From a virus (taxonomy: Duplodnaviria; Heunggongvirae; Uroviricota; Caudoviricetes), in IMG/VR virus record IMGVR_UViG_2778261135_000007: DNA of 17,902 nt. One strand, 5' to 3'. Positions 4,224 through 6,393 of this stretch are shown here, piece by piece (the stretch's first letter is position 1; every line of letters begins with the position of its first letter). Made by a program: the position numbers and the translations under genes. The notes under the pieces were generated by a model, which was not told the origin of the DNA, made no database searches, and saw only the letters and a list, made by a program, of their open reading frames with translations.

Positions 4224-4415
4224 TTAAAGACCTGCCGGGATTTCGATATTATCCTGGTGAATAACTTTATCGACCGGGTAACAGTTACCGGGAATTTTCT
4301 GTTCGGTTGCTGCAGTCATACACTCCTGCATTGTCCTGTGAACACTGACTGCAATATCAACTGGCACTCCGGAAACAAGAAAAACTGTCAGAACAAGCGC
4401 AAATGCTGAATTCAT
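4224..4415 (-). CDS. ydfD: YdfD-like small membrane/lysis protein (63 aa)
   Basis: Internal start MNSAFALVLTVFLVSGVPVD... gives 63 aa with a hydrophobic N-terminal segment. Start abuts the dicB stop, as in the dicB operon. Sequence matches my recollection of Qin YdfD. Confidence 0.7.
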   Translation of the reverse strand: MNSAFALVLTVFLVSGVPVDIAVSVHRTMQECMTAATEQKIPGNCYPVDKVIHQDNIEIPAGL

Positions 4416-4600
4416 TGTGCACATCCTTTTGGCATCAGACGTAAACGAGCCAGCATTGAAACAATGCATATTTTATTTAATAGCTCCCGTTCTTGTTTTC
4501 TCTTGTTAATGGCATCTTCAGTAAATACAGGGTTACTGATAGTGACACCAATTTCAAAACAACCTTCAGACGTATTAACGTTTGGTAATAACGTTTTCAT
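4412..4600 (-). CDS. dicB: Cell division inhibitor DicB (62 aa)
   Basis: Translation from the internal ATG, MKTLLPNVNTSEGCFEIGVTISNPVFTEDAINKRKQERELLNKICIVSMLARLRLMPKGCAQ, matches the DicB sequence as I remember it. GAGGA Shine-Dalgarno upstream. The longer 97-aa track ORF is an upstream in-frame extension. Confidence 0.85.
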   Translation of the reverse strand: MKTLLPNVNTSEGCFEIGVTISNPVFTEDAINKRKQERELLNKICIVSMLARLRLMPKGCAQ

Positions 4601-4774
4601 TATCGCGTCCTCAACAATGAATTTTGTGATGCAGTGCCTGGTGCCTCCAGGTGACGTTAACCAGTTAACAATTAACGTCGGATACAGAGAATCCACCCAT
4701 AACACTGTTTTTGGTTTTAACTGTTCCGCGTGCGCTTAGCCGCATTCACCGCATCACAAAATTCACTTTAAAAA

Positions 4775-4827
4775 CGGCGGCAGAGCAGTCACGGAGTAAA
4801 ACTGATACCGCCAAACGTCACCAGAAA
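4775..4827 (-). ncRNA. dicF: DicF small regulatory RNA (53 nt; targets ftsZ mRNA)
   Basis: Reverse complement of 4775-4827 reads TTTCTGGTGACGTTTGGCGGTATCAGTTTTACTCCGTGACTGCTCTGCCGCCG, matching recalled DicF over essentially its full length. Followed on the minus strand by a T-run (TTTTT). Lies between the ydfC region and dicB, as in the Qin dicB operon. Confidence 0.85.
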
Positions 4828-4858
4828 ATTGATAACAGAGGGCGTTGCAGCGGTGTTG

Positions 4859-5050
4859 TCACTTAAGCGTATGGTCAACCTGACAACTCGGTGTCCTCAA
4901 CGGGGAAGGAATAACCCCGCCGTACTTACCGCCGCGCCATTTTGCGGGTTGCCACAACCGGAAGCGCACGGTCGAATTAAATTTAACGACACCGTACAGT
5001 GAGACGAACTTCGCCGTGCGCTTTCGTGTTGTGTGCCTGCTTTTAACCAC
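4859..5050 (-). CDS. Hypothetical small protein in the ydfC position (weak call; region may be structured RNA)
   Basis: 63-aa minus ORF between the ydfB-like ORF and dicF. A competing 61-aa ORF in another frame (4897-5082), GC-rich sequence and long inverted repeats (GCGCACGG at about 4964-4974 pairing with CCGTGCGC at about 5012-5021) make the coding assignment uncertain. Confidence 0.3.
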   Translation of the reverse strand: MVKSRHTTRKRTAKFVSLYGVVKFNSTVRFRLWQPAKWRGGKYGGVIPSPLRTPSCQVDHTLK

Positions 5051-5086
5051 GTCAGGCGAGGTGGTATCCTTAAAATCACCACAGTT

Positions 5087-5662
5087 TTAAGGATTCATTA
5101 AGCAATGTCGCAACCACCAATAAATCCGCTTAAGAACATGAAAATTGATTACTGGTATAAAGCGCTTACAGTTGTTGGCGCTGCGTTGTTTGTCTTTAAT
5201 GGAACGTCTTTTTTTGACAGATATCCCGTTGTTCCATTGGGTTTTTTGTCCTCCGGCATCTTTTTTATTGGTTTGGGGGAGTGGATTAATCACCCTCTCA
5301 AAGTGAGATTTATTGGTCCTGGAGTTTGGACTCGTGGATATAATCGTTCTTCGTGCGCACTCGGTATCATCTTCGACATACTTGGTTGTTTCCTGATTGT
5401 TACAGGAGTCGTCAAGTTCTTCTGATGTAAAACCGCAAATGGGGCACGTAACGGGAATTTTGAAAAGCGTTTCTCCGGGTTCCAGAACAAAATTTTCTGC
5501 GGTCTGATTTTGCTTCTCATATTTGTGCTCCGCGTCATTGTGAGAGCACATTCTTATTCTGAGTGCCTGTTTAAACTCACTGAAGCTGAGAGCTTCTTCG
5601 CCTTCGGCAAGGCCTTCGAAGTATTCTTCGTAAGCCTTTTCCATGATTGTGTCGAAATCCAT
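5087..5662 (-). CDS. YdfB-like protein, extended form (about 191 aa) with a CPICG zinc-ribbon-like element
   Basis: Start ATG overlaps the ydfA stop (TGATATG junction). N-terminus MDFDTIMEKAYEEYFEGLAEGEEALSFSEFKQAL.... The C-terminal half is K/N/Q-rich and is antisense to a hydrophobic plus-strand ORF, so the 3' portion may not be coding. Confidence 0.4.
   Translation of the reverse strand: MDFDTIMEKAYEEYFEGLAEGEEALSFSEFKQALRIRMCSHNDAEHKYEKQNQTAENFVLEPGETLFKIPVTCPICGFTSEELDDSCNNQETTKYVEDDTECARRTIISTSPNSRTNKSHFERVINPLPQTNKKDAGGQKTQWNNGISVKKRRSIKDKQRSANNCKRFIPVINFHVLKRIYWWLRHCLMNP
5105..5425 (+). CDS. Hypothetical membrane protein (about 3 predicted hydrophobic helices), antisense to the ydfB-like ORF
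   Basis: 106-aa ORF with three hydrophobic segments (YWYKALTVVGAALFVF, VVPLGFLSSGIFFIGLGEWI, ALGIIFDILGCFLIVTGVV). AAGGA Shine-Dalgarno about 11 nt upstream. Opposite to the operon direction, so it may be only the mirror image of the minus-strand ORF. Confidence 0.2.
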   Translation: MSQPPINPLKNMKIDYWYKALTVVGAALFVFNGTSFFDRYPVVPLGFLSSGIFFIGLGEWINHPLKVRFIGPGVWTRGYNRSSCALGIIFDILGCFLIVTGVVKFF

Positions 5663-5663
5663 A

Positions 5664-5819
5664 TCACTCACCTGAGTTTCTTTCCAGCCAGCGACGGGCA
5701 CCATTTTCGGTTTTAAACGTTTTGCTTTTGGTATACGTCATCGCGGTGAACGTACCGTCCTGGTTGGGGAACACGCCACATACCAGAGATTCGCTGTTGC
5801 CAAGATCGATAGTATCCAT
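5664..5819 (-). CDS. ydfA: YdfA-like small protein (51 aa)
   Basis: Internal ATG gives MDTIDLGNSESLVCGVFPNQDGTFTAMTYTKSKTFKTENGARRWLERNSGE, 51 aa. First gene downstream of dicA on the same strand, as in Qin. The 77-aa track ORF is an upstream extension. Confidence 0.65.
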   Translation of the reverse strand: MDTIDLGNSESLVCGVFPNQDGTFTAMTYTKSKTFKTENGARRWLERNSGE

Positions 5820-5985: not shown

Positions 5986-6393
5986 TTATCTTTTATTTGT
6001 CCGCTGACGGGCTTTTAGTAATTCTTCAAAGAGTTTATTGAAGTTTTTTACTCGAGCTCGCATTTCGGCGAGCTGGGTATCCTGTTCTGATTCTGGCAGT
6101 GCATTAAACAGCTCAAGGAGCTCTAGTTCTTTGGGAGATAAGGCAACTGGCTTCTCAACAGGTGGTGTTGGTTGCTTGTCTTCATCGCCAAATAGAATCC
6201 ATGTTGGTGAGCATTGCAATACTTTGCTGAGGGCAAAAAGGTTCTTCCCTGTAGGTTCACTATCATCCCGTTCCCATTGTGATACAGACACATGGGAGAT
6301 TTTCAGGGCTTTAGCAAGAGACCTTTGGGTGTGTTTGAGGTTTTTCCGACGATACCTAATGCGTTCGCCGATAGTTAAATTTTTTGTATCCAT
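5986..6393 (-). CDS. dicA: Repressor DicA (cI/C2-like HTH repressor of the dicB operon), 135 aa
   Basis: 135-aa translation (MDTKNLTIGERIRYRRKNLKHTQRSLAKALKISHVSVSQWER ... LLKARQRTNKR) matches recalled DicA nearly residue for residue. HTH_XRE-type helix-turn-helix near the N-terminus. Divergent from dicC. Confidence 0.9.
   Translation of the reverse strand: MDTKNLTIGERIRYRRKNLKHTQRSLAKALKISHVSVSQWERDDSEPTGKNLFALSKVLQCSPTWILFGDEDKQPTPPVEKPVALSPKELELLELFNALPESEQDTQLAEMRARVKNFNKLFEELLKARQRTNKR

What the first reader, a model, noticed from the sequence alone, without database searches (positions are those of the whole stretch)
4770..5095. DicF sRNA and a highly structured upstream region annotated only weakly as coding
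DicF is present essentially identical to the known 53-nt sRNA. The 250 bp upstream of it (minus-strand sense) is GC-rich with long inverted repeats and two competing weak ORFs, so it may act mainly as the DicF precursor and processing substrate, not as a protein gene. A further 8-bp inverted repeat (CCTTAAAA ... TTTTAAGG, 5068-5092) sits at the junction with the ydfB-like ORF.
Basis: partly seen in the sequence, partly recalled or inferred. Interest (0 to 1): 0.45.

Follow-up and report, generated by a model that had tools for sequence, protein, structure and literature searches.

The report
DicF precursor with conserved folded leader
The stretch is the known non-coding precursor of the prophage small RNA DicF, not a protein gene. 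About 120 bases of it form a strongly conserved folded RNA, shared with phage P1, that I found in no RNA family library or paper I could search.

Summary
DicF lies at 4775-4827 on the minus strand (Rfam 72.5 bits; 52/53 identical to K-12).

The roughly 220 nt upstream (4828-5044) match the K-12 ydfC-dicF "long untranslated region" at 93.6% identity. They are not ydfC, which is absent from this window.

Neither ORF in this stretch is coding. Close relatives carry many 1-2 nt indels, and variable sites show no codon-position bias.

The RNA has three parts:
- A roughly 25-bp hairpin (4952-5034) spans the RNase III site published for K-12. By size that site maps to about 4959-4964, the 5' end of the known 190-nt DicF precursor.
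- A 120-nt multi-helix pseudoknotted domain (4841-4960) has strong covariation: 18 of 39 pairs carry compensatory changes.
- An AU-rich linker, where RNase E releases DicF, is followed by DicF and its terminator.

The precursor and processing reading is correct but already published (Faubladier 1990; Ragunathan 2023).

What appears undescribed is the folded 5' domain. It matches no Rfam 15 family and is present in 4417 of 5426 complete E. coli genomes. It also sits in the P1/P7 ban leader and next to different downstream sRNA modules. Its function is unknown.

The CCTTAAAA/TTTTAAGG repeat is really 10 bp. It belongs to a neighbouring plus-strand membrane-protein gene (5105-5425), not to DicF.

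The parts
4775..4827 (-). DicF sRNA (53 nt)
   Evidence: Rfam RF00039, 72.5 bits against a gathering score of 48. 52/53 identical to K-12 DicF.
4770..4812 (-). DicF terminator hairpin (4776-4812) and U-tract (4770-4774)
   Evidence: Structure line of the Rfam alignment. Read directly from the sequence as GGCGGUAUCAG...CUGCUCUGCCGCC followed by UUUUU.
4828..4843 (-). AU-rich single-stranded linker GCCCUCUGUUAUCAAU. The RNase E cut that creates the DicF 5' end falls at its 3' edge. This is inferred from K-12 data.
   Evidence: Sequence is identical to K-12 here. RNase E dependence of the 53-nt species comes from PMC10448788.
4841..4960 (-). Conserved folded 5' domain of the 190-nt DicF precursor. 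Helices: P1 4951-4958/4844-4851; P2 4943-4947/4932-4936; P2a 4928-4930/4890-4892; P3 4915-4919/4901-4905; P4 4881-4889/4853-4861; P4b 4878-4880/4866-4868; pseudoknot 4920-4925/4869-4874.
   Evidence: Covariance model R1 scores 127 bits here. No Rfam family matches. This copy has two mismatches to the consensus structure: A4943/C4936 in P2, and C4922 in the pseudoknot.
4952..5034 (-). Long imperfect hairpin, the probable RNase III substrate. 5' arm 5009-5034, 3' arm 4952-4977. The predicted cut that makes the 190-nt species lies at about 4959-4964.
   Evidence: -38.6 kcal/mol, z = -4.83. Present in all lambdoid variants examined, at -23.5 to -43.2 kcal/mol. 90.4% of cells paired against 28-43% for slid partners. 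The cleavage position is inferred from the 190-nt size and Fig. S1 of PMC10448788.
4859..5050 (-). ORF63 (GTG start). Not a gene.
   Evidence: The start codon lies outside the conserved block, which ends at 5044. Frameshifting indels and no codon-position bias. The phrog_8854 hit is best read as repeated mis-annotation.
4897..5082 (-). ORF61 (GTG start). Not a gene.
   Evidence: Same tests. No Pfam or PHROG family. Annotated as a hypothetical protein in phage HannyBb.
5044..5071 (.). Mosaic junctions. Homology to most DicF loci, K-12 included, ends at 5044. A smaller group extends to 5071.
   Evidence: blastn of 96 unique upstream sequences. E. coli genome matches end at query positions 445 or 472.
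5046..5094 (+). Two hairpins upstream of the plus-strand gene: 5046-5065, and the 10-bp repeat 5066-5094. The 3' arm of the second holds the AAGGA ribosome-binding site.
   Evidence: Both hairpins recur, with compensatory changes, upstream of homologues at 58% and 51% identity, the latter from Yersinia.
5105..5425 (+). Gene for a 106-aa hydrophobic, probably membrane protein. It occupies the place of ydfC on the opposite strand.
   Evidence: Full-length homologues at 34-58% identity in several genera. Always next to the prophage repressor. Not annotated by PGAP in an identical genome.
5561..5662 (-). ydfB remnant (residues 1-34). The 205-aa ORF 5087-5704 is this remnant fused to antisense read-through of the plus-strand gene.
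   Evidence: tblastn gives 100% over YdfB residues 1-34. PGAP calls it an incomplete ydfB.
4412..4600 (-). dicB, the first gene downstream of the DicF terminator (context)
   Evidence: PGAP annotation of an identical genome. ORF translation.

Best explanation
Window 4770-5044, read on the minus strand, is the untranslated DicF-precursor segment of the early-left (dicBF) operon of a HannyBb/Qin-like lambdoid prophage.

Transcription comes from the repressor-controlled promoter upstream of ydfA. A roughly 25-bp imperfect hairpin (5034-4952) forms first and is cut by RNase III in its 3' arm, at about 4959-4964. This leaves a roughly 190-nt RNA.

The first 120 nt of that RNA (4960-4841) fold into a compact domain of six helices plus a loop-to-junction pseudoknot. 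The 5' strand of its closing helix, GUUGUGG, is the same sequence that forms the base of the RNase III hairpin. The domain therefore probably closes fully only after, or in competition with, that hairpin.

RNase E then cuts the AU-rich linker (AUCAAU|UUUCUGG) and releases the 53-nt DicF. DicF ends at its own intrinsic terminator. Polymerases that read through go on to dicB, ydfD, the exonuclease, and probably further early-left genes such as the xis and int that follow in phage HannyBb.

Basis of each step:
- Shown here: DicF identity, homology to the K-12 untranslated region, absence of coding signal, the hairpin, and the folded domain with covariation.
- Taken from K-12 experiments: the RNase III and RNase E steps and the 190-nt species.
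- Inferred: the exact cut position, the hairpin/P1 competition, and any role of the folded domain.

My best guess for that role is a cis-acting control of DicF maturation or stability, or of the choice between terminating and reading through.
For: - DicF is confirmed by Rfam.
- 4600-5044 is 93.6% identical to K-12, where the stretch lies between ydfC and dicB and carries no annotated CDS. The ydfC stop to DicF gap in K-12 is 340 nt.
- Literature. RNase III creates the 190-nt DicF and RNase E the 53-nt one, with no internal promoter (PMC10448788). [quoted passage not shown] - Not coding. Many 1-2 nt indels occur in 96 homologues of 87-99% identity. Examples are +1 at 4905 in 32 sequences, +1 at 5039 in 72, and -1 at 5003 in 55. 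Variable sites by codon position are 22/32/29 and 29/26/18. No Pfam hits.
- Hairpin. z = -4.83. It is universal in lambdoid variants. 90.4% of cells are paired against 28-43% for slid partners.
- Folded domain. 95.2% of cells are paired against 31-48% for slid partners. 18 of 39 pairs carry compensatory changes against 8.2 +/- 1.5 in shuffles. The MAFFT-only alignment gives 14 against 5.3 +/- 1.4.
- Model specificity. True copies score 79.5-143 bits (one 5'-truncated copy 51). 70 unrelated loci that contain the same 16-mer score at most 19 bits.
- Strand. Many G-U pairs fix the RNA to the DicF strand.
Against: - No transcript data exist for this window. The RNase III and RNase E sites are transferred from K-12, and the cut position is only sized (190 nt), not read.
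- The single-sequence fold of the 190-nt RNA is not exceptional (z = -1.44), and its MFE differs in part from the covariation model.
- Part of the P4 loop and the pseudoknot 3' strand was fixed by the search pattern used to collect half of the variants. Their invariance is only partly informative.
- The pseudoknot has one covarying pair, seen in one lineage (P1-type).
- The folded domain can be absent while a DicF-like sRNA is still present (Stx1c phage). It is therefore not required for making such an sRNA.
- PHROGs holds a family (phrog_8854) matching ORF63.
Confidence: 0.85

Rival explanations
1. One of the two minus-strand ORFs (63 aa at 4859-5050, or 61 aa at 4897-5082) encodes a small phage protein, and the RNA structure is incidental.
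For: ORF63 matches phrog_8854 (E 1.2e-27). Phage HannyBb annotates ORF61 and a 29-aa ORF here as hypothetical proteins.
Against: - Frameshifting 1-2 nt indels occur in most close homologues, and there is no third-position excess.
- Both start codons lie beyond the 5044 recombination junction, so most homologues lack them.
- No Pfam family.
- PGAP calls nothing here in the genomes inspected: two fetched regions and the 12 sampled hits of the domain search.
- PHROG families are built from predicted ORFs, so a conserved RNA called repeatedly as an ORF would produce such a family.
Confidence: 0.03
2. The folded domain is a cis-acting processive antiterminator RNA. It would work like the put RNAs of phage HK022, modifying RNA polymerase so that it reads through the DicF terminator and later terminators into dicB, exo, xis and int.
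For: - The domain always lies in the leader of a long early operon. It is about 30-60 nt after the Pban promoter in P1, about 300 nt after the annotated PL in phage Ayreon, and about 800 nt after dicBp in Qin-type prophages.
- In 39 of 41 representatives it is followed within 20-45 nt by an intrinsic terminator that the distal genes must be read through.
- No N-like antiterminator is annotated between repressor and domain in HannyBb, Ayreon or the identical E. coli genome.
- Loops and junctions are nearly invariant, as expected for binding a conserved host machine.
Against: - Model R1 finds nothing in HK022 24000-32500 at E <= 10. That stretch contains a putL-like match.
- The architecture differs: put is two stem-loops of about 70 nt without this pseudoknot (PMC9378689).
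- There is only one copy per phage and none in the rightward operon.
- The Stx1c phage keeps the hairpin and a terminator-ending sRNA without the domain.
- In K-12 a large share of transcripts do stop at dicF (PMC10448788).
- The spacing to the terminator is variable.
Confidence: 0.2
3. The folded domain is a functional RNA in its own right, for example a protein-binding or decoy RNA. It is merely co-transcribed with DicF-like sRNAs, and the stable 190-nt species is a product, not just an intermediate.
For: - Modules shuffle independently. L298 and L319 have hairpin plus domain but no sRNA or terminator. Different 3' sRNA modules follow the same domain.
- The domain is more widespread than DicF: 9462 places in 4417 E. 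coli genomes against 7242 places in 4011. It is also on about 500 P1-like plasmids.
- The 190-nt RNA accumulates and stays stable in stationary phase (PMC10448788).
Against: No partner, target or phenotype is known. All evidence is distributional. The 190-nt species rises when RNase E is inactivated, as an intermediate would.
Confidence: 0.2
4. The domain plus terminator is a riboswitch-like attenuator. The domain would sense a ligand or protein and switch the DicF terminator on or off through alternative pairing.
For: Aptamer-like complexity (multi-helix junction with pseudoknot and invariant junction bases) immediately upstream of an intrinsic terminator. CCGCY at the 3' edge of the domain could pair with the invariant GGCGG of the terminator 5' strand (sequence reading).
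Against: - The linker between domain and terminator varies in length and sequence.
- The candidate antiterminator pairing does not covary. It is absent in P1-type and Salmonella F1055-type copies, whose terminators differ.
- No Rfam riboswitch matches.
Confidence: 0.07

Closest known systems
E. coli K-12 Qin prophage dicBF operon: the ydfC-dicF untranslated region and the 190-nt DicF precursor (Faubladier 1990; Ragunathan 2023, PMC10448788)
   Same: The sequence is 93.6% identical over 4600-5044. The order is the same: hairpin, folded domain, linker, DicF, dicB. The K-12 copy matches model R1 at 138.9 bits. DicF is 52/53 identical.
   Different: ydfC and the C-terminus of ydfB are replaced here by an opposite-strand membrane-protein gene. 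The window copy has two mismatches in the consensus structure. This prophage type still has exonuclease, xis and int in the isolated phage HannyBb, whereas Qin is defective.
Phage P1/P7 ban-operon leader, annotated "dicF-like region" in AF234172
   Same: It contains the same folded domain (77-84% identity; R1 84.6-88.6 bits) with compensatory changes in P3, P4 and the pseudoknot. An intrinsic terminator follows.
   Different: It starts about 30-60 nt after the C1-controlled Pban promoter, with no RNase III hairpin. The closing helix differs. The downstream hairpin is not DicF and does not match the DicF model at Rfam's gathering threshold. tRNA genes follow.
HK022 putL/putR polymerase-utilisation RNAs
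   Same: Cis-encoded structured RNA in the early operon leader of a lambdoid phage lacking N, upstream of terminators.
   Different: No detectable sequence or structure similarity. put is about 70 nt with two stems and a triplex (PMC9378689). put has left and right copies, whereas this domain is single-copy. No activity data exist here.
Intra-operonic and 3'-UTR-derived Hfq sRNAs released by RNase E (SroC, CpxQ, SdhX; review PMC9438474)
   Same: The sRNA is cut from a longer mRNA by RNase E and ends at an intrinsic terminator. DicF is the founding example.
   Different: Those precursors are not reported to carry a separately conserved, pseudoknotted upstream domain or an RNase III entry hairpin.
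RNase III processing hairpin in the lambda N leader (own knowledge, not tested here)
   Same: A long imperfect hairpin in the early-left transcript of a lambdoid phage, cut by RNase III.
   Different: No sequence relationship was examined. The lambda site controls N translation, whereas this one frees the 5' end of an sRNA precursor.

Membership tests
DicF RNA (Rfam RF00039) | Covariance-model score at or above the curated gathering score | tested here: met
   72.5 bits against 48, full length 1-52.
DicF RNA (Rfam RF00039) | Single-stranded 5' seed followed by a terminator hairpin and U-tract | tested here: met
   The seed UUUCUGGUGACGUUU is identical to K-12. The hairpin is 4776-4812 and the U5 tract 4770-4774.
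DicF RNA (Rfam RF00039) | Located in a dicB-type early-left prophage operon, upstream of dicB | tested here: met
   dicB is at 4412-4600(-). ydfA and the ydfB remnant lie upstream, and the repressor at 5986-6393(-).
190-nt RNase III / RNase E-processed DicF precursor (K-12) | Sequence homology to the K-12 ydfC-dicF untranslated region | tested here: met
   93.6% identity over 445 nt. Aligned.
190-nt RNase III / RNase E-processed DicF precursor (K-12) | Long double-stranded hairpin spanning the position 190 nt upstream of the DicF 3' end | tested here: met
   Hairpin 4952-5034, -38.6 kcal/mol, z = -4.83. It covaries. 190 nt back from 4770-4775 gives 4959-4964.
190-nt RNase III / RNase E-processed DicF precursor (K-12) | RNase III-dependent 5' end and RNase E-dependent 53-nt product in vivo | not testable with these tools
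   Shown only for K-12 (PMC10448788).
YdfC protein | Protein homology to K-12 YdfC (72 aa) | tested here: not met
   tblastn of YdfC against the window gives a best E of 0.92. K-12 ydfC lies outside the homologous block.
Small protein family phrog_8854 | Reading frame preserved and codon-position bias among homologues | tested here: not met
   1-2 nt indels are common, and variable sites by codon position are 22/32/29, despite the profile hit.
HK022 put antiterminator RNA | Sequence and structure similarity to putL/putR (two stem-loops, about 70 nt) | tested here: not met
   R1 finds no match in HK022 24000-32500 at E <= 10. A putL-like match lies in that stretch. The architecture differs.
HK022 put antiterminator RNA | Copies downstream of both early promoters | tested here: not met
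   One R1 hit per locus in about 100 loci with flanks that reach the rightward operon.
HK022 put antiterminator RNA | Suppresses termination in cis without protein factors | not testable with these tools
   Needs in vitro transcription or reporter assays.
Any Rfam 15 family (for the 4841-4960 domain) | cmscan match | tested here: not met
   No match at E <= 10 over 4827-5100. No match over the domain at gathering score in 16 related loci.
tRNA / tmRNA-like element | ARAGORN detection | tested here: not met
   0 genes in the window.
Riboswitch-type terminator/antiterminator attenuator | Conserved, mutually exclusive pairing between the aptamer 3' part and the terminator 5' strand | tested here: inconclusive
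   CCGCY/GGCGG pairing is possible in lambdoid copies but invariant, so there is no covariation. It is absent in P1 and F1055 types.

The most novel reading that the evidence does not exclude
The 120-nt domain at 4841-4960 would be a previously unclassified structured RNA of enterobacterial temperate phages. It has six helices and a pseudoknot, with near-invariant loops. It is shared by lambdoid prophages and P1/P7, and it combines independently with an RNase III entry hairpin and with different terminator-ending sRNAs.

On this reading it has its own molecular function. It might act on RNA polymerase to govern read-through of the terminator that follows it, or bind a host factor such as Hfq or an RNase to time release of a toxic sRNA. 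It would not be a passive spacer.

The evidence does not exclude this. The fold and its conservation are well supported. Only the function is open, and I found no description of the fold in Rfam or the searchable literature.
Probability: 0.45. Interest if true: 0.65.

Novelty: already known. Interest (0 to 1): 0.4.

Why it matters

Two practical points follow:
- The segment is repeatedly annotated as hypothetical proteins in phage genomes and has seeded a PHROG family. These calls should be treated as RNA.
- The folded 5' domain is unannotated in every genome inspected, yet it is present in 81% of complete E. coli genomes, with a median of 2 and up to 8 copies. It is also on P1-like plasmids.

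The domain sits directly in front of a terminator that gates two cell-division inhibitors (DicF and DicB) and the phage recombination and excision genes. If it controls DicF maturation or terminator read-through, it would be a missing layer in how cryptic prophages keep toxic genes quiet. It would also be a new candidate RNA family with a clear experimental handle.

Tried and rejected
- **Genome-collection scan.** The 15-base pattern CAGGTTGACCATNCGC was too short for 596 Gb. The loci were reused as negative controls for the covariance model.
- **AgvB/AsxR anti-sRNAs.** I suspected the variant sRNAs after the domain were these, because of the CACAACA motif. Rejected: those genes lie at the PR' moron site (PMC4104026), and Rfam AgvB does not match.
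- **5S rRNA resemblance (GCGCGGYGGU).** The local alignment score equals the shuffle mean.
- **tRNA-like cloverleaf.** ARAGORN finds nothing.
- **HK022 put.** No model match.
- **MFE alternative outer stem** (GCGGCGGU with ACCGCUGC). Rejected in favour of P1 + P2 + P2a, because column 125 covaries with column 10 and U33 covaries with A84, not with the MFE partners.
- **Mini-ORF and SD-like GAGGA inside the domain, and an anti-SD-like UCCUU in the P3 loop.** Neither is conserved across variants.
- **Consensus promoter and terminator scan.** Nothing useful; it misses the DicF terminator because the loop is longer than 8 nt.
- **Papers not held.** Faubladier & Bouché 1994 and Lobocka 2004 could not be read. 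An older description of the domain cannot be excluded.
Full report
**What is at the coordinates.** cmscan places DicF (RF00039) at 4775-4826 on the minus strand with 72.5 bits, against a gathering score of 48. The 53-nt RNA is 4827-4775 and differs from K-12 DicF at one base, the last.

The surrounding genes, all on the minus strand, are those of a Qin/HannyBb-type lambdoid early-left operon:
- a DicA-like repressor at 5986-6393;
- ydfA at 5667-5819;
- a ydfB remnant at 5561-5662;
- DicF, then dicB at 4412-4600, ydfD, and an 823-aa exonuclease.

An isolated phage, HannyBb, has the same arrangement at 98.8% identity over the finding, followed by xis and int.

The other observations also hold:
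- GC is 0.51-0.57 over 4850-5049, against 0.35-0.46 in the flanks.
- The listed inverted repeats exist.
- The two ORFs exist.
- The junction repeat is real, and is 10 bp rather than 8.

**It is not ydfC.** In K-12, homology to the window covers 4600-5044 at 93.6%. It lies entirely between dicB and ydfC, and ydfC ends 340 nt upstream of DicF. YdfC has no match anywhere in the window (tblastn E 0.92). Among 96 unique DicF-anchored sequences, homology to the window ends at 5044 in most, at 5071 in a few, and continues only in near-identical copies.

The stretch 4828-5044 is therefore the conserved "long untranslated region containing dicF" described for K-12 (PMC5069750). PGAP annotates nothing there in an identical genome.

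**It is not coding.** I aligned 96 unique homologues of 87-99% identity over 5044-4828.
- They show many 1- and 2-nt indels. Examples are +1 at 4905 in 32 sequences, +1 at 5039 in 72, -1 at 5034 in 53, -1 at 5003 in 55, and +1 at 4996 in 58.
- The 92 variable sites are spread 22/32/29 over the codon positions of ORF63 and 29/26/18 over those of ORF61.
- Both start codons lie beyond the 5044 junction.
- Neither ORF has a Pfam family.

ORF63 does match phrog_8854, and HannyBb annotates ORFs here. I read both as repeated calling of a conserved RNA as an ORF.

**The RNase III hairpin.** The minus-strand RNA 5036-4950 folds into one long imperfect hairpin (-38.6 kcal/mol, z = -4.83).
- Every lambdoid variant examined has the equivalent hairpin, at -23.5 to -43.2 kcal/mol. 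The arm sequences differ in compensating ways, for example GCGCACGG/CCGUGCGC, GCGCACAG/CUGUGCGC, GCGCAUUCC/GGAAUGCGC and GAGGGCAU/GUGCUCUC.
- On an arms-only alignment, 90.4% of cells pair against 28-43% for slid partners. There are 30 double-change cells against 8.3 +/- 2.4 in shuffles. The number of covarying pairs (6) is not above the shuffles.

In K-12, RNase III cleavage produces the 5' end of a 190-nt DicF species and RNase E produces the 53-nt form, with no internal promoter (PMC10448788). Supplementary Fig. S1 of that paper places the site inside this sequence. Counting 190 nt back from the DicF 3' end (4775) or from the end of the U-tract (4770) gives 4964-4959. That is in the 3' arm of the hairpin, at GCGCUUCC|GGUUGUGG. 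The position is inferred from size, not read from data.

**The folded domain.** Searching phage genomes showed that part of the upstream region (about 4836-4958) is conserved on its own. It occurs in Stx2c phages, in Salmonella phage F1055, and in P1/P7. In P1/P7 it lies just downstream of the C1-controlled Pban promoter and overlaps the feature annotated "dicF-like region".

I collected variants in two ways: anchored on DicF and anchored on the P4-loop motif. I reduced them to 41 representatives of at most 97.5% identity and aligned them. The alignment supports these elements:
- a closing helix P1 (GUUGUGGC/GCUGCAAC);
- a hairpin P2 (CCGCG-AAAUGG-CGCGG);
- a three-pair helix P2a enclosing a variable hairpin P3;
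- a long hairpin P4/P4b with a 9-nt loop;
- a pseudoknot between GUAUGG, upstream of P3, and CCAUAC in the P4b loop.

The counts are as follows.
- MAFFT alignment: 95.0% of cells paired against 33-56% for slid partners, and 14 pairs with compensatory changes against 5.3 +/- 1.4 in shuffles.
- Model-based alignment of 100 hits (43 distinct): 95.2% against 31-48%, and 18 of 39 pairs against 8.2 +/- 1.5.
- P4 alone has 6 of 9 pairs with double changes: UA/CG 29/13, GC/AU 39/4, and others.
- The pseudoknot is 98.8% paired, with one covarying pair (UA 34, CG 4, UG 4).

Abundant G-U pairs fix the strand. The MFE alternative outer stem is not supported by the same counts.

A covariance model built from the alignment (R1) scores true copies at 79.5-143 bits (one 5'-truncated copy 51); the window copy scores 127 bits at 4841-4960. 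It scores 70 unrelated bacterial loci that contain the same 16-mer at no more than 19 bits. Rfam 15 has no family for the domain, either at E <= 10 here or at gathering score in 16 related loci.

Caveat: half of the variants were fished with a pattern covering the P4 loop. Invariance there is partly by construction. The DicF-anchored and BLAST-found copies show the same loop.

**Modularity and context.** In 39 of 41 representatives, a 20-45 nt variable linker follows the domain, and then a terminator hairpin. The terminator is GGCGG...CCGCC-U5 in lambdoid copies and GCCCAUC...GGUGGGC-U6 in P1. The domain therefore precedes a family of DicF-like sRNAs with different 5' parts.

The modules also occur separately:
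- L298 and L319 have hairpin plus domain but no sRNA or terminator.
- An Stx1c phage has the hairpin and a DicF-like sRNA, but the domain is reduced to GUUGUG-AAUA-ACAAC.
- In L319 the hairpin base and P1 are separate sequences, and P1 covaries (GCUGU/ACAGC). P1 is therefore a helix in its own right.
- Elsewhere GUUGUGG serves both the hairpin base and P1, so the two are mutually exclusive until RNase III removes the 5' arm. This last point is an inference.

Distribution:
- The domain is in 4417 of 5426 complete E. coli genomes, at 9462 places (median 2, maximum 8), with no annotated feature under any of the 12 sampled hits.
- It is on about 500 P1-like plasmids of Escherichia, Salmonella, Klebsiella and Shigella.
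- DicF itself is at 7242 places in 4011 genomes.

**What the domain does.** This is not established.
- K-12 data show that the 190-nt RNA is stable in stationary phase, accumulates when RNase E is inactivated, and disappears without RNase III.
- An Hfq co-immunoprecipitation study found an enriched interval upstream of dicF.
- The domain's position suggests control of maturation or of terminator read-through. It always lies in the leader of a long early operon and almost always directly before a terminator. The phages I inspected have no annotated N.
- The put-like reading fails the similarity tests I could run, and the domain is single-copy.
- A riboswitch-like alternative pairing is not conserved.

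I therefore commit to the processing-precursor mechanism at 0.85 confidence. I rank the possible domain roles as follows: a cis role in maturation, stability or the termination choice as most likely; put-like antitermination at about 0.2; an independent RNA function at about 0.2; and a riboswitch-like attenuator at about 0.07.

**The junction repeat.** The 10-bp repeat 5066-5094 lies outside the conserved DicF block. It sits 11 nt before the ATG of a plus-strand ORF (5105-5425, 106 aa, three hydrophobic segments), and its 3' arm holds the AAGGA ribosome-binding site.
- That ORF is a real gene. It has full-length homologues at 34-58% identity in Yersinia, Herminiimonas, Reinekea and metagenomes.
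- In the five Escherichia, Yersinia and metagenome loci I fetched, it lies next to a prophage repressor, on the strand opposite the early-left operon.
- Both upstream hairpins, including this repeat, recur there with compensatory changes: UUAAAA/UUUUAA becomes UAAAGG/CCUUUA.

The repeat therefore belongs to that gene's 5' region, probably as a translational control hairpin. The 205-aa minus-strand ORF that ends inside it is YdfB residues 1-34 fused to antisense read-through.

**Comparison, novelty and score.** The DicF identification and the precursor reading are already known.

The conserved fold of the 5' domain, its presence in P1/P7, and its modular combination with different sRNAs were not described in anything I could search. 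Two relevant older papers were not available.

I score the finding as posed at 0.4. I give the "new structured phage RNA with its own function" reading a probability of 0.45, with an interest of 0.65 if true.

Noticed in passing
window 5105-5425 (+), with hairpins at 5046-5094: An unannotated gene for a 106-aa hydrophobic, probably membrane protein. It is conserved at 34-58% identity across genera. In the five loci fetched it lies beside a lambdoid prophage repressor, on the strand opposite the early-left operon. It has two conserved 5' hairpins, one of which covers its ribosome-binding site. It may be an immunity-region moron such as a superinfection-exclusion gene.
   Followed up: partly
window 5087-5704 (-): This 205-aa ORF matches phrog_35040 over its full length. 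It is YdfB residues 1-34 fused to antisense read-through of the plus-strand gene, so it is probably not a real protein. ydfC is missing from this prophage.
   Followed up: partly
window 4623-4763 (-): A sub-threshold match to the Rfam sRNA STnc100 (33.5 bits, gathering score 47) lies between the DicF terminator and dicB. A 2026 preprint links STnc100 to the prophage PasD sRNAs.
   Followed up: no
window 10326-10500 (+): A sok antitoxin RNA of a hok/sok-type toxin-antitoxin locus (Rfam 115 bits).
   Followed up: no
window 13795-14187 and 16697-17082 (+): Two cspA-type cold-shock 5'-UTR thermoregulators (159 and 109 bits). They imply two prophage cold-shock protein genes.
   Followed up: no
L128 1420-1720 (Stx1c phage); L298 5071-5192 and L319 5003-5122: The modules shuffle. 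The Stx1c phage has the RNase III hairpin and a DicF-like sRNA, but the folded domain is replaced by a tetraloop hairpin. L298 and L319 have hairpin plus domain and no sRNA or terminator.
   Followed up: partly
L126 about 2390-2490; L310 4506-4632 (-): In some variants the apical part of the long hairpin is enlarged. It carries a tRNA T-arm-like motif (CUGGUUCGAUUCCAG) or a sequence scoring as tRNA (40 bits).
   Followed up: no
window about 4826-4838 with 4752-4765 (-): Sequences flanking DicF are complementary (GUUAUCAAUUUUC / GAAUUUUGUGAU). In read-through transcripts they could form the stem that RNase III cuts to give the published 72-nt DicF species.
   Followed up: no
L371 (phage HannyBb); hit H34 (phage Tritos): DicF and its full precursor region occur in isolated phages. 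A 2016 paper found no DicF or DicB in about 2000 phage genomes.
   Followed up: partly
L125 39-227, L275 1171-1359, L296 2569-2769: C4 antisense RNA and isrK RNA sit side by side in three related phage loci that also carry the folded domain, 0.3 to 5 kb from it.
   Followed up: no
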